A DNA stretch of 64,000 nt from Escherichia coli (GTDB lineage Bacteria > Pseudomonadota > Gammaproteobacteria > Enterobacterales > Enterobacteriaceae). Position numbers and translations under genes: made by a program. The stretch lies in the NCBI RefSeq assembly GCF_003018235.1, contig NZ_CP027437.1, one strand, 5' to 3'. Under the pieces are notes generated by a model. It did no database searches and had not been told where the DNA came from. It worked only from the letters and a program-made list of their open reading frames with translations. Every line of letters starts with the position of its first letter. Position 1 is the first letter of the stretch. Positions 48,025-57,746 of this stretch are shown here, piece after piece.

Positions 48025-49532
48025 TGGCAATTCTTGATGATGTGATTGGCGTTTTTTCACCAGGATGGAAAGCGGCAAGGCTGCGTTCCCGAGCGGTGAT
48101 CCAAGCTTATGAGGCCGTAAAAACGACGCGGACACACAAAGCCCGACGGGAGAACCGAACTGCCGACCAGTTAAGCCAGTACGGGGCCGTGTCGTTACGT
48201 GAGCAGGCCCGTTACCTTGATAACAACCACGATCTGGTCATTGGTGTATCTGACAAGCTGGAAGAACGGGTGGTGGGGAAAAACGGGATTATTGTCGAGC
48301 CACATCCGGTATTACGCAATGGTGCCATTGCCCGTGACCTGGCAGCGGAGATACGTACCCGATGGAGTGAATGGTCTGTCAGTCCGGAAGTCACCGGGCA
48401 GTTTACCCGTCCGATGCTGGAACGTCTGATGCTGCGTACCTGGCTGCGCGATGGTGAGGTGTTTGCCCAGATGGTTTCCGGGCGCATAAACAGCCTGACG
48501 CCTTCTGCCGGTGTTCATTTCTGGCTGGAGGCGCTCGAGCCGGACTTTATTCCCATGACCAGTGATGAGAGCAACAGGCTGAATCAGGGCGTGTTTGTTG
48601 ATGACTGGGGGCGTCCCGAAAAATATCTGGTGTATAAAAGTCGTCCTGTATCCGGACGGCAGATGGAAACCAAAGAAGTGGATGCAGAGCGAATGCTGCA
48701 TCTTAAATTTGTTCGCCGTCTGCACCAGATGCGCGGGACGTCTTTATTGTCCGGTGTGCTGATCCGCCTCAGCGCCCTGAAAGAGTATGAAGATTCTGAG
48801 CTGACTGCAGCAAGGATCGCCGCTGCTCTGGGGATGTACATCCGGAAAGGCGACGGACAGAGCTATGAAACGGATGGTAATGACAGCAAGGAGAATGAAC
48901 GCGAGCTTACCATTCAGCCAGGCATTATTTACGACGATCTGAAACCCGGCGAAGAAATCGGAATGGTGAAGTCGGATCGTCCCAATCCTAACCTTGAAAC
49001 TTTTCGTAATGGTCAGTTGCGTGCCGTGGCGGCGGGCAGTCGTCTGAGTTTTTCCAGTACGGCACGCAACTATAACGGCACTTACAGCGCCCAGCGTCAG
49101 GAACTGGTTGAGTCTACTGATGGCTACCTGATCCTGCAGGACTGGTTTATTGGTGCCGTCACCCGCCCGATGTATCGTGCCTGGCTGAAACAGGCTGTGG
49201 CATCCGGTGTTATCAGGCTACCCCGCGATCTTGACCGTTCTTCACTGTATACCGCGGTGTATTCCGGACCAGTGATGCCGTGGATTGACCCTGTTAAGGA
49301 GGCTGAGGCCTGGAAAATCCAGATTCGTGGTGGAGCGGCGACAGAATCAGACTGGGTACGTGCTGGTGGTCGTAATCCGGATGATGTCAAACGTCGGCGC
49401 AAGGCCGAAATTGATGAAAACCGCAAGCTGGATCTGGTATTTGATACCGATCCGGCCAGTGATAAAGGAGGCAGCAGTGCCGCAACGAAACGACAGGAGC
49501 CGCAGCACACCGACGACCAGTCCGAAGAATAA
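48024..49532 (+). CDS. Portal protein (lambda gpB-like)
   Basis: 502 aa from MAILDDVIGVFSPGWKAARLRSRAVIQAYEAV; track ORF carries an upstream extension overlapping W. Confidence 0.8.
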   Translation: MAILDDVIGVFSPGWKAARLRSRAVIQAYEAVKTTRTHKARRENRTADQLSQYGAVSLREQARYLDNNHDLVIGVSDKLEERVVGKNGIIVEPHPVLRNGAIARDLAAEIRTRWSEWSVSPEVTGQFTRPMLERLMLRTWLRDGEVFAQMVSGRINSLTPSAGVHFWLEALEPDFIPMTSDESNRLNQGVFVDDWGRPEKYLVYKSRPVSGRQMETKEVDAERMLHLKFVRRLHQMRGTSLLSGVLIRLSALKEYEDSELTAARIAAALGMYIRKGDGQSYETDGNDSKENERELTIQPGIIYDDLKPGEEIGMVKSDRPNPNLETFRNGQLRAVAAGSRLSFSSTARNYNGTYSAQRQELVESTDGYLILQDWFIGAVTRPMYRAWLKQAVASGVIRLPRDLDRSSLYTAVYSGPVMPWIDPVKEAEAWKIQIRGGAATESDWVRAGGRNPDDVKRRRKAEIDENRKLDLVFDTDPASDKGGSSAATKRQEPQHTDDQSEE

Positions 49533-49545
49533 TTCCTGGTTCAGG

Positions 49546-51504
49546 ATGCAGGCTGGTCACCAGAGTGACGCGGATATTTATATTTATGACGAGATTGGTT
49601 TCTGGGGTGTTACAGCGAAGCAGTTTATCAGTGATCTGAATGCACTGGGCGATATCACCCACATTAATCTCCATATTAATTCACCGGGTGGCGATGTCTT
49701 TGAAGGCATCGCCATTTTTAATGCGCTGAAAACACATGGTGCGTCCATTACCGTTTATGTCGACGGTGTGGCGGCGTCAATGGCGTCGGTCATTGCGATG
49801 GTGGGAAACCCGGTCATTATGCCGGAAAACACTTTCATGATGATTCATAAACCATTTGGCTTTACGGGCGGTGATGCGGAGGACATGCGCACCTATGCCG
49901 ACCTGCTCGATAAAGTTGAGGCGGTTCTGTTACCCGCTTATGCACAGAAAACCGGGAAAACCACCGATGAAATTGCTGCCATGCTGGCGGATGAGACCTG
50001 GATGTCCGGTGCCGAATGTCTGGCACATGGATTTGCTGATCAGGTAACGCCAGCCGTTAAGGCAATGGCATGTATTCAGTCAAAACGTACAGAGGAATTT
50101 AAAAAGATGCCGGAATCCATTCGAAACATGATTACTCCGCCACGCAACAGTGCTCCACGCGTACAGGATGATGAACCTGCAGCCTCCCGGACGCCAGTGC
50201 AGGCAGCAGCACCCGTGGTGGATGAAAACAGTATCCGTGCGCAGGTACTGGCAGAGCAAAAAGCGCGTGTAAACGGTATTAATGATCTGTTTGCCATGTT
50301 TGGCGGGCGTTATCAGACTCTGCAGGCTCAGTGTCTTGCCGATCCTGAATGTTCGCTGGAGCAGGCCCGCGAAAAGCTGTTGAACGAGATGGGGCGCGAG
50401 TCCACGCCATCCAATAAAAATACCCCGGCTCATATTTATGCCGGTAACGGTAATTTTGTGGGGGACGGGATCCGCCAGGCGCTGATGGCGCGTGCCGGAT
50501 TTGAAAAAACCGAACGTGATAATGTCTACAACGGGATGACCCTGCGTGAATATGCCCGTATGTCACTGACTGAACGGGGTATTGGGGTTTCCAGTTATAA
50601 CCCGATGCAGATGGTCGGTGCGGCGTTCACACACAGTACGTCTGACTTCGGTAATATTCTGCTGGATGTTGCGAACAAAGCCATTCTGCAGGGCTGGGAA
50701 GATGCTCCTGAAACCTATGAACAGTGGACGCGGAAAGGTCAGTTGTCTGATTTTAAAATTGCCCATCGTGTGGGTATGGGGGGCTTCAGTGCTCTGCGTC
50801 AGGTGCGTGAAGGGGCGGAATATAAATACGTCACCACCGGAGATAAACAGGCCACTATTGCACTGGCGACCTATGGCGAGCTGTTCAGTATCACCCGTCA
50901 GGCCATTATCAATGATGATCTGAATATGCTGACCGATGTCCCGATGAAGCTGGGCCGTGCGGCGAAATCCACCATTGCCGATCTGGTTTATGCCATTCTG
51001 ACGTCTAACCCGAAAATCTCCACAGATAATGTAAGTCTGTTCGATAAAGCGAAACATGCAAACGTACTGGAGAGCGCTGCAATGGACGTGGCATCGCTGG
51101 ATAAAGCCCGCCAGTTGATGCGCGTTCAGAAAGAGGGGGAGCGTCATCTGAATATTCGTCCTGCGTTCGTACTGGTACCGACGGCGATGGAGTCTGTTGC
51201 TAACCAGGTCATTCGCTCCTCAAGTGTCAAGGGGGCTGACATTAACGCCGGTATTATTAACCCGGTGAAAGATTTTGCGACCGTTATTGCAGAGCCTCGT
51301 CTTGATGATAACAGCCAGACCACCTTCTACCTGGCTGCGTCCAAAGGCTCCGATACGATTGAAGTGGCTTATCTCAACGGTGTGGATACGCCATATATTG
51401 ATCAGATGGAGGGCTTCAGTGTGGATGGCGTGACAACGAAAGTGCGTATTGACGCCGGTGTCGCGCCAGTTGATCACCGCGGTCTGGTGAAATGTACGGC
51501 GTAA
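49546..51504 (+). CDS. Prohead protease (ClpP/S49-like) - scaffold - HK97-fold major capsid fusion protein
   Basis: 652 aa from MQAGHQSDADIYIYDEIGFWGV; N-terminal ClpP-like domain (INSPGGDVFEGIAIFNAL...ASMASVIAM), Ala/Gln-rich coiled linker, C-terminal ~350-aa capsid domain. Confidence 0.75.
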   Translation: MQAGHQSDADIYIYDEIGFWGVTAKQFISDLNALGDITHINLHINSPGGDVFEGIAIFNALKTHGASITVYVDGVAASMASVIAMVGNPVIMPENTFMMIHKPFGFTGGDAEDMRTYADLLDKVEAVLLPAYAQKTGKTTDEIAAMLADETWMSGAECLAHGFADQVTPAVKAMACIQSKRTEEFKKMPESIRNMITPPRNSAPRVQDDEPAASRTPVQAAAPVVDENSIRAQVLAEQKARVNGINDLFAMFGGRYQTLQAQCLADPECSLEQAREKLLNEMGRESTPSNKNTPAHIYAGNGNFVGDGIRQALMARAGFEKTERDNVYNGMTLREYARMSLTERGIGVSSYNPMQMVGAAFTHSTSDFGNILLDVANKAILQGWEDAPETYEQWTRKGQLSDFKIAHRVGMGGFSALRQVREGAEYKYVTTGDKQATIALATYGELFSITRQAIINDDLNMLTDVPMKLGRAAKSTIADLVYAILTSNPKISTDNVSLFDKAKHANVLESAAMDVASLDKARQLMRVQKEGERHLNIRPAFVLVPTAMESVANQVIRSSSVKGADINAGIINPVKDFATVIAEPRLDDNSQTTFYLAASKGSDTIEVAYLNGVDTPYIDQMEGFSVDGVTTKVRIDAGVAPVDHRGLVKCTA

Positions 51505-52772: not shown

Positions 52773-53170
52773 ACCGGCATACACAAATCCGCCAGGCCGT
52801 ACTGGCACGCCTTCGGGAACAGTGTGGAGACAGCGCCACGTTTTTTGACGGGCTTCCGGCATTTATTGATGTGCAGGAACTGCCTGCCGTGGCGGTGTGG
52901 CTGAGTGATGCTCAGTACACCGGAAAAATGACGGATGAAGATGACTGGCAGGCTGTTCTGCATATTGCCGTCTTCATCCGGGCACAGGCACCGGATTCAG
53001 AGCTGGATATGTGGATGGAGAGCACCATTTTCCCTGCCCTGAATGATATACCGGCACTTTCCGGACTCATCGACACCCTGATCCCACTCGGTTTTAACTA
53101 TCAACGTGATAATGAGATGGCCACCTGGGCGATGGCGGAAATCACGTACCAGATCACGTACACGAATTAA
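52757..53170 (+). CDS. Tail terminator protein U (lambda gpU-like)
   Basis: 137 aa, overlaps Z stop, precedes major tail gene. Confidence 0.7.
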   Translation: MADPMNRHTQIRQAVLARLREQCGDSATFFDGLPAFIDVQELPAVAVWLSDAQYTGKMTDEDDWQAVLHIAVFIRAQAPDSELDMWMESTIFPALNDIPALSGLIDTLIPLGFNYQRDNEMATWAMAEITYQITYTN

Positions 53171-53180
53171 GGAGGTGGTA

Positions 53181-53924
53181 ATGACCACACCAAATCCACT
53201 GGCAAAGACGAAAGGTGCGGGGACGACGTTCTGGATGTATACCGGCAACGGCGATGCGTTTGCGAACCCTTTGTCGGACACTGACTGGCTGCGTCTTGCG
53301 ATGGTGAAGGATCTGCAACCTGGCGAAATGACCGCTGATGCAGAAGATGACACTTATCTCGATGATGAAGATGCAGACTGGAAAACGACAACCCAGGGGC
53401 AGAAATCCGTTGGTGATACTTCGGCGACGCTGGCCTGGCGTCCGGGTGACAGCGGGCAGAAAAAACTGGTTCAGTTGTTCGACTCCGGTGAAGTCTGCGC
53501 GTTTCGTATCAAATATCCCAACGGCACTGTTGATGTTTTCCGTGCCTGGCTGAGCTCACTGGGTAAAACCATTGCCTCAAAAGACGTGATGACCCGCACT
53601 GTGAAAATCAGCGGTGTGGGGCGTCCGTATCTGGCAGAGGAAGGCACTGAAACCGTGAGCGTTACCGGGCTGACAGTATCACCGGCGTCTGCCAGTGTAA
53701 AAGTGGGAGCAACCACCACGCTGACCTTTACAGTAAAACCTGACGGAGCCAGTGACAAAGCGATCAGTGTGCATTCGTCAGATCCACAGACTGCCACGGT
53801 TACCCTGAACGGACTTGTGGCCACGGTAAAAGGCGTGAAGCAGGGCAGTGTCAGCATTGTGGGCATGACCGCTGACGGGAATTTTGTGGCTGTGACTGCG
53901 GTGACTGTCAGCGCAGCAGGTTAA
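53181..53924 (+). CDS. Major tail protein V with C-terminal Ig-like (Big_2-type) domain
   Basis: 247 aa from MTTPNPLAKTKGAGTTFWMY after RBS AAGGAGGTGG; C-terminal beta-rich repeat VSVTGLTVSPASASVKVGATTTLTFTVKPDGASDKAISVHSSDPQTATVT. Confidence 0.8.
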   Translation: MTTPNPLAKTKGAGTTFWMYTGNGDAFANPLSDTDWLRLAMVKDLQPGEMTADAEDDTYLDDEDADWKTTTQGQKSVGDTSATLAWRPGDSGQKKLVQLFDSGEVCAFRIKYPNGTVDVFRAWLSSLGKTIASKDVMTRTVKISGVGRPYLAEEGTETVSVTGLTVSPASASVKVGATTTLTFTVKPDGASDKAISVHSSDPQTATVTLNGLVATVKGVKQGSVSIVGMTADGNFVAVTAVTVSAAG

Positions 53925-53981
53925 CAGGACGATACTCATCATTTGCCCCGGTTATGCGGGGCTTTTTTGCAGGTGGAGAAC

Positions 53982-54371
53982 ATGATGTTTCTGAAACAGG
54001 ACACGTTTAATTATGAAAAACAGTCCGTGGTGCTCAGTGAGCTGTCCGGGCTGCAGAGAATTGAATATCTGACGTTTGTTCAGCAGCGAACGGCAAAGTT
54101 TGATGCCGGGGAGGGAGAACTGCCGGAGGCTGAACGACAGATTGCTTTTCTGCGGATGGGGATGGATATCAATGCCTGGCTGGTTTCCCGCTCACTGTGG
54201 AATGCGGATCAGTCTAAGGATGTAGAGACGCTTTGCGCATCCGTTATTACAACATGGTCGTATGATGCCCTGGGTGCGGGGGCGGAGATGGTTCTGTCGC
54301 TGAGCGGTATGGGGGCCATTGATAATGCCGTGGATGATGAGCATGAGGCGCTGACGCCGGAAAAGTCCTGA
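53982..54371 (+). CDS. Tail assembly chaperone G (lambda gpG-like)
   Basis: 129 aa from MMFLKQDTFNYEK after RBS GGTGGAG; followed by -1 frame T ORF. Confidence 0.75.
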   Translation: MMFLKQDTFNYEKQSVVLSELSGLQRIEYLTFVQQRTAKFDAGEGELPEAERQIAFLRMGMDINAWLVSRSLWNADQSKDVETLCASVITTWSYDALGAGAEMVLSLSGMGAIDNAVDDEHEALTPEKS

Positions 54372-54709
54372 CGCGGGAAATGCAGTTTGTCATGCGGCTT
54401 GCCCGGGAGTTCCGGCGGGCAGACTGGCGGCGGATGCTGTCGGAAATGTCGGCCACTGAGCTTGGTGAGTGGGGCGATTATTTCCGGATGCAGAGCTTCA
54501 GTGATGTGTGGATGGATGCGCAGTTTGCCTCGCTGAAGGCATTGATCGTGATAATGGTGTCCGGCAGCAGTGATGCTGCGGTGGCTGATTTCAGCCTTTT
54601 ACCGGAAGAGAACGGGATACCGGAGCGAACGGACGAAGAACTGATGCATCTTGGGGAAGGTATTTCCGGAGGTGTGCGTTATGGAGCAGATAGCCAACCT
54701 GGTCATTGA
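54359..54709 (+). CDS. Tail assembly chaperone T portion, expressed as G-T fusion by programmed -1 frameshift
   Basis: T frame is -1 relative to G and is open only from 54347 (three stop codons at 54335-54346); candidate slippery heptamer G_GAA_AAG at 54359-54365, just before G stop. Confidence 0.65.
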   Translation, partial: GKVLTREMQFVMRLAREFRRADWRRMLSEMSATELGEWGDYFRMQSFSDVWMDAQFASLKALIVIMVSGSSDAAVADFSLLPEENGIPERTDEELMHLGEGISGGVRYGADSQPGH

Positions 54710-57700
54710 TTTGGGGATTGATGCGGCAGAGTTTAAAAATGAAATTCCCCGTATCAAAAACCTTCTGAATGGTGCAGCCAGCGATGCAGAACGGTCTTCT
54801 GCCCGTATGCAGCGTTTTATGGAGCGTCAGACTCAGGCCGCCCGGCAGACAACGCAGGCAGCTTCTTCGGCTGCAACAGCCGCATCCGTCCATGCGCAGA
54901 CGGTGGAGAAGAACGCACAGGCTCATGAACGCATGGCCCGCGAGGTGGAGAAAACCCGCCAGCGCATGGAGGCACTGAGCCAGAAAATGCGCGAGGAACA
55001 GGCGCAGGCCATGGCTCTGGCGGAGGCTCAGGATAAAGCGGCTGCTGCGTTTTATCGTCAGATTGACAGTGTGAAACAGGCCAGTGCGGGGCTGCAGGAA
55101 TTACAGCGTATTCAGCAGCAGATCCGACAGGCCAGAAACAGTGGCGGGATTGGTCAGCAGGATTATCTGGCGCTGATTTCTGAGGTTACTGCGAAAACCC
55201 GTGTTCTTACACAGGCTGAGGAAGAGGCTACCCGACAGAAAGTGGCGTTTATCCGTCAGCTTAAAGAGCAGGCAACCCGCCTGAATCTTTCATCTTCTGA
55301 GTTGCTTCGTGCTAAGGCAGCCCAGCTGGGGGTAAGCAGTGCTGCAGAAGTGTATATCCGCAAAATGGAGCATGCAGGAAAAGCCACGCATTCGCTGGGT
55401 CTGAAAAGTGCATCAGCCCGCCAGGAGATAGGCGTTCTGATAGGTGAACTGGCCCGCGGCAATTTAGGGGCGCTGAGGGGATCCGGGATAACGCTGGCTA
55501 ACCGTGCCGGATGGATAGACACACTGATGTCACCGAAAGGCATGATGCTTGGCGGGGTTATTGGCGGTATTGCCGCGGCCGTCTATGGTCTGGGTAAAGC
55601 CTGGTATGACGGTCAGAAGGAGGGGGAAGAATTTAACCGCCAGTTGTCGCTGACGGGGCATTATGCCGGAGTCACTGCCGGGCAGCTGTGGACGCTCAGT
55701 CGTGCTATTTCCGGGAATGGTATCACGCAACATGCTGCAGCCGGTGCGCTGGCTCAGGTGGTGGGGAGTGGTGCATTTCGTGGAAACGATATCGGTATGG
55801 TGGCGAGAGCTGCCGCACAGATGGAGCGATCGGTTGGCCAGTCGGTCAGCGATACCATAAATCAGTTTAAGCGGCTGAAGGATGATCCTGTAAATGCCGC
55901 GAAGGCTCTGGACAATGAGCTGCATTTTCTTACTGCCACTCAGCTTGAGCAGATACGCGTCCTTGGGGAGCAGGGGCGGTCCAGTGATGCTGCACGGATA
56001 GCCATGTCTGCACTGGCAGAGGAAACCGGTCGGCGTACTGCGGATATTGATAATAACCTCAATGCGCTTGGCAGTACGCTGAAGTATCTGTCTGATTTGT
56101 GGAGTCGTTTCTGGGATGCGGCCATGAATATTGGTCGTGAAGACTCGCTGGATGAACAGATTGCCGCTTTACAGGAGAAAGTGTCGCGGGCGAAAAGACT
56201 CCCCTGGACGGCATCATCTTCTCAGGTTGAATACGATCAGCAGCGTCTTAACGATCTTCAGGAGAAAAAACGCCAGAAGGATTTGCAGGATGCAAAAGAG
56301 CAGGCAGAGCGGAATTATCAGGAGCAACAGAAACGCCGTAATGCTGAAAATGCTGCACTGAACCGGATGAATGAAACGGAAGCAGCACGACATCAGCGTG
56401 AAATTGCGCGTATTAATGCCATGCAGTACGCCGATCAGGCTGTCAGGGATGCGGCGATACAACGTGAAAATGAACGTTACGAGAAAGCCCTGGCATCCGG
56501 TAAGAAAAAAACACGCGAAACCCGTAATGATGAGGCCACCCGGTTATTGCTGCAGTACAGTCAGCAACAGGCACAGGTGGAAGGACAGATTGCTGCTGCC
56601 AGACAGTCAGTAGGCATTGCCACGGAAAGGATGACAGAAGCGCATAAACAGCTTCTGGCTCTGCAGCAGCGCATCAGCGACCTAGACGGGAAAAAACTTA
56701 CGGCAGATGAAAAGAGTGTGCTGGCCCGTAAAGATGAACTGATTCAGGCACTGACGCTGCTGGATGTAAAACAGCAGGAGCTTCAGAAACAGACGGCACT
56801 CAACGAGCTGAAGAAAAAAACAATTCAGCTGACCAGTCAACTGGCTGAAGAAGAGCGCGCTCAGCGTCAGCAACATGACCTGGATATCGCCACGGTGGGT
56901 ATGGGTGATCAGCAGCGACAGCGATATCAGGTACAACTGAGTCTTCGCCAGAAATACCAGCAACAGCTGGAGCAGTTGAGGCGGGATAGTGAGCAGAAAG
57001 GGACATATAACACGGATGACTACAGAAAGGCCGAGCAGGCGCTGACGGAGAGCCTGAACCGACAACTGAATGAGAATCGCCGTTACTGGCAACAGCTTGA
57101 AGTTGTGCAGGGTAACTGGAAAAACGGAGTCCTGCGTGCATTTCAGGATTTTACCGTGGATGCAGATAATACGGCAGAAACAGCAGAACAGGTGTTCTCG
57201 TCAGCCTTCAGCAACATGGGAAATGGCCTGGCAACTTTTGTCACTACCGGCAAACTCAATTTCAAATCCTTCACCTCTTCTGTGCTGTCAGATATGGCGA
57301 AAATCCTGGCGCAGGCAACCATGATGAAATCGATAAAAGGGATTGGCAGTGTACTGGGATTTGATCTCAGCAGCCTTTCCCTGAATGCCAATGGGGGGAT
57401 TTATCAGTCTGCTGATTTGAGTCGTTACAGTGGCACGGTGGTTAACCGTCCGACGTTTTTTGCTTTTGCAAAAGGCGCGGGTGTGATGGGGGAAGCGGGA
57501 CCTGAAGCCATTCTGCCATTGCGTCGTGGTGCTGACGGTAAGCTGGGGGTTGTGGCGGATATTGGGGGTTCAGGTATGGCGATGTTTTCCCCGCAGTACA
57601 ACATCGAGATCAATAACGATGGCACGAACGGGCAGATAGGTCCGGCTGCCCTGAAGGCGGTTTATGACCTCGGGAAAAAAGCGGCAGCGGACTTTATGCA

Positions 57701-57746
57701 ACAGCAGGCCCGTGATGGTGGTCGGTTAAGTGGAGCATATCGGTAA
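54681..57746 (+). CDS. Tail tape measure protein (lambda gpH-like)
   Basis: 1021 aa from MEQIANLVIDLGIDAAEF after RBS GGAGGTG; long coiled-coil Gln/Ala/Arg-rich central region, Gly-rich C-terminal part. Confidence 0.85.
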   Translation: MEQIANLVIDLGIDAAEFKNEIPRIKNLLNGAASDAERSSARMQRFMERQTQAARQTTQAASSAATAASVHAQTVEKNAQAHERMAREVEKTRQRMEALSQKMREEQAQAMALAEAQDKAAAAFYRQIDSVKQASAGLQELQRIQQQIRQARNSGGIGQQDYLALISEVTAKTRVLTQAEEEATRQKVAFIRQLKEQATRLNLSSSELLRAKAAQLGVSSAAEVYIRKMEHAGKATHSLGLKSASARQEIGVLIGELARGNLGALRGSGITLANRAGWIDTLMSPKGMMLGGVIGGIAAAVYGLGKAWYDGQKEGEEFNRQLSLTGHYAGVTAGQLWTLSRAISGNGITQHAAAGALAQVVGSGAFRGNDIGMVARAAAQMERSVGQSVSDTINQFKRLKDDPVNAAKALDNELHFLTATQLEQIRVLGEQGRSSDAARIAMSALAEETGRRTADIDNNLNALGSTLKYLSDLWSRFWDAAMNIGREDSLDEQIAALQEKVSRAKRLPWTASSSQVEYDQQRLNDLQEKKRQKDLQDAKEQAERNYQEQQKRRNAENAALNRMNETEAARHQREIARINAMQYADQAVRDAAIQRENERYEKALASGKKKTRETRNDEATRLLLQYSQQQAQVEGQIAAARQSVGIATERMTEAHKQLLALQQRISDLDGKKLTADEKSVLARKDELIQALTLLDVKQQELQKQTALNELKKKTIQLTSQLAEEERAQRQQHDLDIATVGMGDQQRQRYQVQLSLRQKYQQQLEQLRRDSEQKGTYNTDDYRKAEQALTESLNRQLNENRRYWQQLEVVQGNWKNGVLRAFQDFTVDADNTAETAEQVFSSAFSNMGNGLATFVTTGKLNFKSFTSSVLSDMAKILAQATMMKSIKGIGSVLGFDLSSLSLNANGGIYQSADLSRYSGTVVNRPTFFAFAKGAGVMGEAGPEAILPLRRGADGKLGVVADIGGSGMAMFSPQYNIEINNDGTNGQIGPAALKAVYDLGKKAAADFMQQQARDGGRLSGAYR

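What the first reader, a model, noticed from the sequence alone, without database searches (positions are those of the whole stretch)
54335..54385. G-T tail chaperone frameshift site is tightly constrained and uses G_GAA_AAG rather than lambda's G_GGA_AAG
The -1 (T) frame has three stop codons at 54335-54346 and G stops at 54369-54371, so the programmed slip must occur within 54347-54368. The only slippery candidate there is GGAAAAG (54359-54365). P-site re-pairing GAA to GGA needs a G-U wobble at the middle position, so the efficiency may differ from lambda.
Basis: partly seen in the sequence, partly recalled or inferred. Interest (0 to 1): 0.4.

Follow-up and report, generated by a model that had tools for sequence, protein, structure and literature searches.

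The report
Common lambdoid tail-chaperone frameshift site
This is the ribosomal -1 frameshift site that joins the two tail-assembly chaperone genes (G and T) of a lambda-like E. coli prophage; its G_GAA_AAG slip sequence differs from phage lambda's by one base but is already annotated in phages N15 and phi80 and is the commonest form in this gene family, so it is ordinary.

Summary
Three TGA stops close the -1 (T) frame at 54335-54346. G stops at 54369-54371. G_GAA_AAG (54359-54365) is the only place in the 22-nt overlap where an A-site tRNA can re-pair.

The two ORFs are lambda gpG and gpT homologues (Pfam PF06894, PF06223). They lie between the tail-tube gene V and the tape-measure gene H. 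The heptamer sits at exactly the position of lambda's G_GGA_AAG, with no gaps in the alignment.

It is not unusual. GenBank records for N15 and phi80 already label GGAAAAG as the G-T slippery sequence. In my census of 71 non-identical intact junctions, 59 use GGAAAAG and only 3 use lambda's GGGAAAG.

The 15 nt CC-GGAAAAG-TCCTGA are invariant across relatives whose G proteins are only 57-66% identical. The ATG at 54380, used by every database annotation to start T, has almost no Shine-Dalgarno sequence. It is present in only 23 of the 59 GGAAAAG junctions.

I found no conserved stimulatory RNA structure and no consistent upstream SD-like element.

In vitro work used G GAA AAG as a "less slippery" control. 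Efficiency cannot be settled from sequence.

Verdict: real, correctly interpreted, already known, low interest.

The parts
53181..53924 (+). Major tail tube protein gene (lambda V homologue with a C-terminal Ig-like domain), immediately upstream of G
   Evidence: Pfam Phage_TTP_12 E=7e-67 and Big_2 E=2e-12. Annotated as major tail protein V in near-identical phages.
53945..53972 (+). Terminator-like hairpin GCCCCG-GTTATG-CGGGGC followed by TTTTTT, between V and G
   Evidence: Terminator scan. The same feature is annotated as a rho-independent terminator in mEp460, Ayreon and N15.
53982..54371 (+). Gene G, tail assembly chaperone (129 aa from ATG 53982; a second ATG lies at 53985; stop TGA 54369-54371)
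   Evidence: Pfam Phage_TAC_2 (lambda gpG) E=3.8e-40. ORF list and frame check.
54335..54346 (+). Three TGA stops in the -1 (T) frame (54335, 54338, 54344) that set the 5' limit of the permitted slip window
   Evidence: Frame translation.
54345..54348 (+). Weak SD-like GAGG, 10 nt 5' of the heptamer; a possible minor stimulator, not conserved
   Evidence: Anti-SD scan. It is strong in some sub-clades (AAGGAGGTG, GAGGTG), only 4 nt here, and absent in phi80, HK225 and lambda.
54357..54371 (+). Invariant 15-nt block CC-GGAAAAG-TCC-TGA, made up of the heptamer, one sense codon and the G stop
   Evidence: This is the longest invariant run in the 307-nt junction segment among 8 representatives whose G proteins are 57-100% identical. 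It is invariant in nearly all intact IMG/VR relatives; the one exception, L007, reads TCA for TCC.
54359..54365 (+). Slippery heptamer G_GAA_AAG, the -1 programmed frameshift site
   Evidence: It is the only A-site re-pairing position in the overlap. It is positionally homologous to lambda G_GGA_AAG. The same heptamer is annotated as the slippery sequence in N15 and phi80.
54365..54709 (+). T part of the G-T fusion, read in the -1 frame after the slip (114 aa; predicted GT = 242 aa; stop 54707-54709)
   Evidence: Pfam Phage_tail_T E=5e-14. The fused GT aligns with lambda GT at E=2e-41 and the junction is ungapped. Product built.
54380..54382 (+). T-frame ATG that all database annotations use as the start of a stand-alone T; probably an internal Met codon of GT
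   Evidence: Annotations. Best anti-SD pairing is -1.1 kcal/mol. It is CGG in L066 and is present in only 23 of 59 GGAAAAG junctions.
54392..54394 (+). Second T-frame ATG (the Met of the conserved F-V/A-M-x-LARE motif)
   Evidence: Weak SD, -4.3 kcal/mol at 10 nt. The position is Leu in lambda, phi80 and Kp4865-4.
54681..57746 (+). Tape measure protein gene (lambda H homologue); its start overlaps the 3' end of T
   Evidence: Pfam TMP_2, Tape_meas_lam_C and TMP_4. Strong SD GGAGGTG, -13.1 kcal/mol.

Best explanation
This is the programmed -1 ribosomal frameshift site of a lambda-type tail assembly chaperone pair. Most ribosomes translate G (129 aa) and stop at TGA 54369. A minority slip back one base while GAA (Glu) and AAG (Lys) occupy the P and A sites. 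tRNA-Lys moves from AAG to AAA, which is a fully cognate and even preferred pairing. tRNA-Glu moves from GAA to GGA, which needs a G-U pair at the middle position. Translation then continues with GTC CTG ACG... to give a 242-aa G-T fusion.

By analogy with lambda, the G part binds the tape measure protein H and the T part recruits the tail tube protein V. A fixed low GT:G ratio is needed for tail assembly.

Shown here: the gene identities, the frame geometry, the uniqueness of the site, its positional homology with lambda's site, and its conservation. Inferred: that the slip actually happens, its frequency, and whether tRNA-Glu really re-pairs or only tRNA-Lys slips.
For: (1) G and T match PF06894 and PF06223 and lie between V and H.

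(2) T is in the -1 frame. It is open for only 22 nt of overlap, and that overlap holds a single A-site-slippery position.

(3) The fused GT aligns with lambda GT at E=2e-41. Downstream of the slip-site Lys, VLTREMQFVMRLARE aligns without gaps to lambda's VFDGELSFALKLARE, so the heptamers occupy the same position.

(4) At that position relatives carry G_GGA_AAG, A_AAA_AAG, C_CCA_AAA, G_GCA_AAA or G_GAA_AAG. The sequence is always slippery for tRNA-Lys even though the encoded residues differ.

(5) GGAAAAG is found in 59 of 71 unique intact junctions. CC-GGAAAAG-TCCTGA is the longest invariant run although G diverges to 57% identity.

(6) The N15 (AF064539) and phi80 (FN582354) records annotate GGAAAAG as the 'slippery sequence for -1 translational frameshift'.

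(7) A stand-alone T start is unlikely. There is almost no SD (-1.1 kcal/mol) and the ATG is not conserved.

(8) mEp460, cdtI, Ayreon, Tritos and HannyBb carry this junction at 97-99% identity and are deposited as complete phage genomes. That they are viable, tail-producing phages is my inference, not a result.
Against: There is no experimental evidence for this clade.

In a reconstituted system G GAA AAG gave mainly 0-frame product and was described as 'less slippery' than G GGA AAG (PMC6924986).

In vivo, the A_AAG tetramer alone was barely above background (0.147% against 0.112%). It needed a pseudoknot to reach 5.6% (PMC4066793).

I found no stimulator. The downstream fold has z=-0.25 against shuffles, there is no family-wide consensus structure, the upstream SD-like element is inconsistent, and there is no Rfam match.

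In this clade T does have in-frame ATGs (54380, 54392), and every database record annotates T as an independent gene.
Confidence: 0.88

Rival explanations
1. T is an independent gene translated from its own ATG (54380, or 54392), as annotated in RefSeq/PGAP and in all deposited phage genomes of this clade. No frameshift is needed.
For: An in-frame ATG lies 9 nt after the G stop, and all records call T from it. The Met at 54392 is widely conserved among GGAAAAG relatives.
Against: The SD is negligible for 54380 (-1.1 kcal/mol) and weak for 54392 (-4.3 at 10 nt), against -7 to -13 for G, V and H. ATG 54380 is CGG in L066 and is absent in 36 of 59 GGAAAAG junctions. Lambda, phi80 and Kp4865-4 have Leu at the 54392 position. 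This rival does not explain why the T frame opens just upstream of an invariant slippery heptamer. From established knowledge of lambda, cited in PMC5009743, T acts only as part of GT, because the G part tethers it to the tape measure.
Confidence: 0.07
2. The frameshift occurs, but as a single-tRNA event. Only tRNA-Lys slips on A_AAG (the tetramer or NNA_AAG hexamer type). tRNA-Glu in the P site does not genuinely re-pair with GGA.
For: Relatives with G_GCA_AAA_TAG (L130-135, L145) cannot re-pair the P-site tRNA-Ala, yet they keep the same architecture. A_AAG is the most efficient tetramer in E. coli. IS1222 (G_CGA_AAG) and Bacillus cdd (A_CGA_AAG) use such sites (PMC5009743).
Against: The G at heptamer position 1-2 is conserved (GG in 59 of 59 GGAAAAG sites, and in GGGAAAG and GGCAAAA), which hints at some role for the -1 P-site codon GGN. 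PRFect authors note that GAA to GGA is fully complementary if G:U is allowed (PMC10885494). Sequence alone cannot separate the two, because the peptide product is identical.
Confidence: 0.35
3. The heptamer is conserved only because of double protein-coding constraint in the G/T overlap. It is not a recoding signal.
For: The 15-nt invariant block lies in a stretch read in two frames.
Against: The G C-terminal tail is otherwise highly variable. Other family members encode different residues at the same place (AGK, SKK, DPK, LAK) yet always keep a Lys-slippery sequence. The chance of an in-frame A_AAG there is about 1%.
Confidence: 0.03
4. RNA polymerase slippage on the A-run, rather than ribosomal slippage, produces a -1-shifted mRNA.
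For: None specific. The site contains AAAA.
Against: The run is only four A residues. The lambda homologue is an established ribosomal frameshift.
Confidence: 0.01

Closest known systems
Phage lambda G / G-T tail assembly chaperone frameshift (G_GGA_AAG; Levin, Hendrix and Casjens 1993; Xu, Hendrix and Duda 2004, 2013, 2014, as cited in PMC5009743)
   Same: Homologous G and T domains (PF06894, PF06223). Same gene order V-G-T-H. T is in the -1 frame. The slip site is at the identical aligned position, with tRNA-Lys moving AAG to AAA in the A site. No stimulatory structure turned up in my scans here (lambda was included in the family-wide alifold and anti-SD scans).
   Different: Heptamer base 3 is A, not G, so the P-site codon is GAA (Glu) rather than GGA (Gly). 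Re-pairing therefore needs a middle-position G-U. G stops one codon after the heptamer instead of five. T here has an in-frame ATG soon after the junction; lambda has none there (its first T-frame Met is the one in AREM).
Phage N15 genes 14/15 and phage phi80 gene G-T (GenBank AF064539, FN582354); also HK225, mEp237, Kp4865-4 and Fels-1
   Same: Exactly the same heptamer, GGAAAAG, at the same aligned position. It is explicitly annotated as 'slippery sequence for -1 translational frameshift' in N15 and phi80.
   Different: Their T domains are closer to lambda's (54-62% identical, against 38% for this clade). In N15, HK225 and phi80 the G stop lies five codons downstream, not one.
A_AAG tetramer / NNA_AAG hexamer -1 frameshift sites in bacteria (IS1222 G_CGA_AAG, Bacillus cdd A_CGA_AAG; Sharma 2014, PMC4066793; Atkins 2016, PMC5009743)
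   Same: The slip is driven by the single E. coli tRNA-Lys re-pairing from AAG to AAA. The P-site codon is not of the XXY type.
   Different: Per Sharma 2014, the A_AAG tetramer needed a pseudoknot to rise well above background. I found no stimulator here.
E. coli dnaX frameshift (A_AAA_AAG with upstream SD and downstream hairpin)
   Same: The same A-site codon and tRNA. A GAGG lies 10 nt upstream of the heptamer; PMC6924986 describes an upstream SD-like stimulator in dnaX (the 10-nt dnaX spacing is from memory, not checked).
   Different: The SD-like element is only 4 nt here and is not conserved. There is no downstream hairpin. The expected efficiency is a few percent or less, not about 50%.

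Membership tests
Lambda-type G/GT tail assembly chaperone with programmed frameshift | Two overlapping ORFs located between the major tail (tube) gene and the tape measure gene | tested here: met
   V 53181-53924, G 53982-54371, T frame 54347-54709, H 54681-57746.
Lambda-type G/GT tail assembly chaperone with programmed frameshift | Sequence homology of the two parts to gpG and gpT | tested here: met
   PF06894 E=3.8e-40; PF06223 E=5e-14. BLASTP of fused GT against lambda GT: E=2e-41, 34% identity.
Lambda-type G/GT tail assembly chaperone with programmed frameshift | Downstream ORF in the -1 frame with a slippery sequence inside the short overlap, at the position homologous to lambda's | tested here: met
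   22-nt overlap, a single A-site-slippery site, and an ungapped alignment to lambda's site.
Lambda-type G/GT tail assembly chaperone with programmed frameshift | Downstream ORF lacks its own translation start | tested here: inconclusive
   ATGs exist at 54380 and 54392, but their SDs are negligible or weak. ATG 54380 is present in only 23 of 59 relatives.
Lambda-type G/GT tail assembly chaperone with programmed frameshift | A G-T fusion protein is made at a low fixed ratio to G and is required for tail assembly | not testable with these tools
   This needs a reporter assay, western blot or mass spectrometry, and phage genetics.
Canonical X_XXY_YYZ tandem-slippage heptamer | The first three bases are identical, so the P-site tRNA re-pairs with a change at the wobble position only | tested here: not met
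   The heptamer is G_GAA_AAG. P-site GAA to GGA differs at the middle base. It fits PRFect's 'twofour' class.
Z_ZZN tetramer (A_AAG) -1 frameshift motif | The A-site codon ZZN is preceded by Z, so its tRNA re-pairs cognately in the -1 frame | tested here: met
   A_AAG at 54362-54365 in the G frame.
dnaX-type stimulated -1 frameshift | Upstream SD-like sequence about 10-14 nt 5' of the site | tested here: inconclusive
   GAGG lies 10 nt upstream in the window. It is strong in some sub-clades and absent in others.
dnaX-type stimulated -1 frameshift | Stable downstream hairpin or pseudoknot 5-9 nt 3' of the site | tested here: not met
   The MFE is no better than shuffles (z=-0.25). There is no family-wide consensus structure and no Rfam match.

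The most novel reading that the evidence does not exclude
Biophysical work treats G_GAA_AAG as a poorly slipping control, yet it is the predominant and possibly ancestral shift site of the lambda-type G/T family. If so, either it depends on an unrecognised local stimulator, or these phages run on a much lower GT:G ratio than lambda's roughly 1:30. One candidate stimulator is the near-invariant 3' context YCC followed by a stop, found one codon after the heptamer in 55 of 59 cases.
Probability: 0.15. Interest if true: 0.4.

Novelty: already known. Interest (0 to 1): 0.15.

Why it matters
There are two modest practical points.

**Annotation.** None of the database records I inspected for this clade joins G and T. 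That covers three phage records (Ayreon, mEp460, PhiR55_1) and one PGAP-annotated genome (strain C5). T is called there as a stand-alone 109-aa protein, or shorter in Ayreon. The 12 other listed E. coli hits also name G and T as separate products. 1,846 of 5,426 complete E. coli genomes carry this module. The real product is almost certainly a 242-aa G-T fusion.

**Efficiency.** In my sample the natural 'default' shift site of lambda-like tail chaperones is G_GAA_AAG, not the textbook G_GGA_AAG. The same sequence has been used in vitro as a low-slippage control. Measuring its in vivo efficiency in native context would show how much GT these phages need. It would also show how much a middle-position G-U in the P site costs.

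Neither point changes current understanding of tail-chaperone frameshifting.

Tried and rejected
**Downstream stimulatory structure.** A single-sequence fold of 54359-54450 gave -32.7 kcal/mol, z=-0.25 against shuffles. Alifold found a fold only among close relatives, driven by sequence identity, and nothing across all GGAAAAG phages or the whole family. Rejected.

**Upstream SD-like stimulator.** The anti-SD scan found AAGGAGGTG in the L055 clade and GAGGTG in L001, about 8-10 nt upstream. The window has only GAGG, and phi80, HK225 and lambda have none. It is not a conserved feature.

**Curated RNA family.** No Rfam match at E<=1 in 53000-55500.

**Phage tRNA genes that might alter decoding.** None in the window.

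**Other slip positions in the overlap.** None allows A-site re-pairing.

**Stop-codon collision or 'shifty stop' role for TGA 54369.** I considered this, but the stop is not adjacent to the slipping tRNA. It does apply to the G_GCA_AAA_TAG relatives.

**Transcriptional slippage.** Rejected because the run is only A4.

**Literature I could not reach.** Xu, Hendrix and Duda 2004 (Mol Cell) and Licznar et al. 2003 (EMBO J, NNA_AAG series) are not held. I could not check whether they list or measure GAA_AAG. Bock et al. 2019 (PMC6787027) has no middle-position data, so its free-energy model cannot be applied.

**Corrections during the work.** I first used wrong coordinates for the G start (53983 instead of 53982) and for the second T-frame ATG (54389 instead of 54392). 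Both were corrected.

Full report
**Observation**

- In the G frame the text reads ...GAT GAT GAG CAT GAG GCG CTG ACG CCG GAA AAG TCC TGA, with the stop at 54369-54371.
- In the -1 frame there are TGA codons at 54335, 54338 and 54344.
- The -1 frame is then open from 54347 to a stop at 54707-54709.

A -1 shift that links the two frames must therefore occur between 54347 and 54368. I enumerated all seven P-site/A-site codon pairs in that stretch. Only G_GAA_AAG (54359-54365) lets the A-site tRNA re-pair (AAG to AAA). Its P-site codon changes from GAA to GGA, a difference at the middle base only.

In-frame A_AAG occurs at 38 of 20,126 codon positions in the long ORFs of this window. The chance of one falling in the six available positions is about 1%.

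**What the genes are**

| Gene | Coordinates | Evidence |
|---|---|---|
| G (upstream ORF) | 53982-54371 | Pfam Phage_TAC_2, lambda gpG, E=3.8e-40 |
| T (-1 frame ORF) | 54347-54709 | Pfam Phage_tail_T, E=5e-14 |
| V (tail tube, Ig-like domain) | 53181-53924 | Phage_TTP_12, Big_2 |
| H (tape measure) | 54681-57746 | TMP_2, Tape_meas_lam_C, TMP_4 |

The region is 97-99.8% identical to phages mEp460, cdtI, Ayreon, Tritos, HannyBb and PhiR55_1. It is also 95% or more identical to a prophage segment in 1,846 of 5,426 complete E. coli genomes. So it is a very common lambdoid tail module.

None of the records I inspected joins G and T. They call T as a separate gene, from the ATG at 54380 in mEp460, PhiR55_1 and strain C5, and further downstream in Ayreon.

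**Homology of the slip site with lambda's**

I built the predicted fusion: 128 residues of G through the Lys, then 114 residues of the T frame. It aligns with lambda GT at E=2e-41.

After the slip-site Lys, the window reads VLTREMQFVMRLARE and lambda reads VFDGELSFALKLARE. There is no gap between the heptamer and the conserved T domain. The window's GGAAAAG and lambda's GGGAAAG therefore occupy the same aligned position and differ by one base.

**What relatives use at that position**

Representatives of the lambda T family from the phage collection:
- G_GGA_AAG: lambda, PhiR12_5 and an Stx2a phage.
- A_AAA_AAG: an Stx1a phage and CP-1639.
- C_CCA_AAA: Vibrio phage HY01.
- G_GAA_AAG: HK225, phi80, Klebsiella phage Kp4865-4, Salmonella Fels-1 and the mEp460 clade.

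The GenBank records of N15 (AF064539) and phi80 (FN582354) carry a misc_feature labelled 'slippery sequence for -1 translational frameshift'. Its coordinates read GGAAAAG in both. The heptamer has therefore long been recognised as a G-T shift site.

Two scans of IMG/VR viral contigs gave 155 anchored loci and 71 non-identical intact junctions:

| Heptamer | Junctions |
|---|---|
| GGAAAAG | 59 |
| GGCAAAA | 5 |
| GGGAAAG | 3 |
| AAAAAAG | 2 |
| CCCAAAA | 1 |
| GGAAAAA | 1 |

The sample is biased toward relatives of the query. Even so, it shows that G_GAA_AAG is the usual form and lambda's the minority.

**Conservation**

I compared eight representatives whose G proteins are 57-100% identical. 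The longest invariant run in the 307-nt junction segment is the 15 nt CC-GGAAAAG-TCC-TGA (54357-54371). The codons just upstream vary freely.

Members of the wider family encode different residues at the site (AGK, SKK, DPK, LAK, PEK). All of them keep a sequence on which tRNA-Lys can slip. That argues for selection on the nucleotide motif rather than on the peptide.

**Frameshift or independent start**

- The ATG at 54380 has essentially no Shine-Dalgarno pairing: -1.1 kcal/mol, against -7.0 for G and about -13 for V and H.
- That ATG is CGG in L066.
- It is present in only 23 of the 59 GGAAAAG junctions.
- A second Met codon at 54392 is more widely conserved. It is part of the F-V/A-M-x-LARE motif, is Leu in lambda, phi80 and Kp4865-4, and has only a weak SD at long spacing.

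In lambda, gpT acts only as the C-terminal part of gpGT, and the GT:G ratio of about 1:30 is needed for tail assembly (PMC5009743). I put independent initiation as the main route to T at about 7%.

**Mechanism and efficiency**

The likely event is the standard one. With GAA in the P site and AAG in the A site, the single E. coli tRNA-Lys re-pairs with AAA. tRNA-Glu sits on GGA with a G-U pair in the middle position.

- Peng et al. 2019 used AUG GAA AAG as a sequence 'unfavorable for slippage' because of this second-position mismatch. They saw mainly 0-frame product, unlike with G GGA AAG (PMC6924986).
- Sharma et al. 2014 found the A_AAG tetramer barely above background without a stimulator and 5.6% with a pseudoknot (PMC4066793).
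- The PRFect authors note that GAA to GGA is fully complementary if G:U is allowed, and they list a 'twofour' motif class for tail chaperones (PMC10885494).

I looked for a stimulator and found none that is conserved.
- The downstream fold is no better than shuffled sequence (z=-0.25).
- No consensus structure spans the family.
- The upstream SD-like element is strong in some sub-clades, only GAGG in this window, and absent in phi80, HK225 and lambda.
- No Rfam family matches.

Relatives carrying G_GCA_AAA_TAG cannot re-pair the P-site tRNA-Ala at all. That suggests the tRNA-Lys slip is the essential element in this family. Sequence cannot tell whether tRNA-Glu contributes here.

**Verdict**

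The feature is an ordinary, already recognised variant of the lambdoid G-T frameshift site.

Two small points remain. The records I inspected for this very common prophage module annotate T as a stand-alone gene. And the natural 'default' heptamer of this family is one that in vitro work treats as poorly slippery, so its efficiency in native context would be worth measuring.

Noticed in passing
L130-L135, L145 (IMG/VR relatives); slip position about 39 nt upstream of the LARE codons: A sub-clade replaces the heptamer with G_GCA_AAA followed directly by the G stop TAG; L134 has G_GAA_AAA_TAG. The P-site tRNA-Ala cannot re-pair. This looks like a single tRNA-Lys slip on A_AAA with a stop codon in the A site ('shifty stop'), giving ...AK-IAARE....
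   Followed up: partly
window 54366-54371 and relatives: In 55 of 59 GGAAAAG junctions the G stop lies exactly one codon after the heptamer. The intervening codon is TCC or CCC in 54 of 59. The base that is both position 2 of that codon and the synonymous third position of the T-frame Val/Ala codon is C in 56 of 59. This could be nucleotide-level selection on the 3' context, or just shared ancestry.
   Followed up: partly
window 53945-53972: There is a strong terminator-like hairpin (6 G-C pairs, then TTTTTT) between the tail tube gene V and G. The same feature is annotated in mEp460, Ayreon and N15, and as a stem-loop in HK225. It could lower transcription of G, T and H relative to V.
   Followed up: partly
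L054/L055 clade and L001 (about 8-10 nt 5' of the heptamer): Some sub-clades carry a very strong SD-like sequence (AAGGAGGTG, -13 kcal/mol; GAGGTG, -9.2) upstream of the heptamer, at a spacing resembling the upstream SD-like stimulator described for dnaX. The window has only GAGG (54345-54348).
   Followed up: partly
window 54660-54709: The conserved C-terminal T motif GGVRYG (tcc gga ggt gtg cgt tat gga) contains the strong SD GGAGGTG and the ATG of the tape measure gene H (54681). The same arrangement is seen in lambda. Part of this peptide's conservation may reflect the H translation start.
   Followed up: no
window 54380; RefSeq, GenBank and PGAP records: The four records I opened for this clade annotate T as a stand-alone 109-aa protein (shorter in Ayreon) rather than as a G-T fusion with ribosomal slippage. 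The 12 other listed E. coli hits also name G and T as separate products. Lambda's RefSeq record also lists T without a join.
   Followed up: yes
L006, L032-L034, L037: L006 and L032-34 have single-base indels inside T that break the frame, from decayed prophages or assembly errors. L037 has an unrelated sequence replacing G right up to about 20 nt before the heptamer, which may be a recombination junction.
   Followed up: no
window 49285-51504: There is a 739-aa ORF upstream of the tail genes. By eye, its N-terminal part looks like a ClpP/S49-type prohead protease and its C-terminal part like a major capsid protein. This would be a protease-capsid fusion; I did not test it.
   Followed up: no
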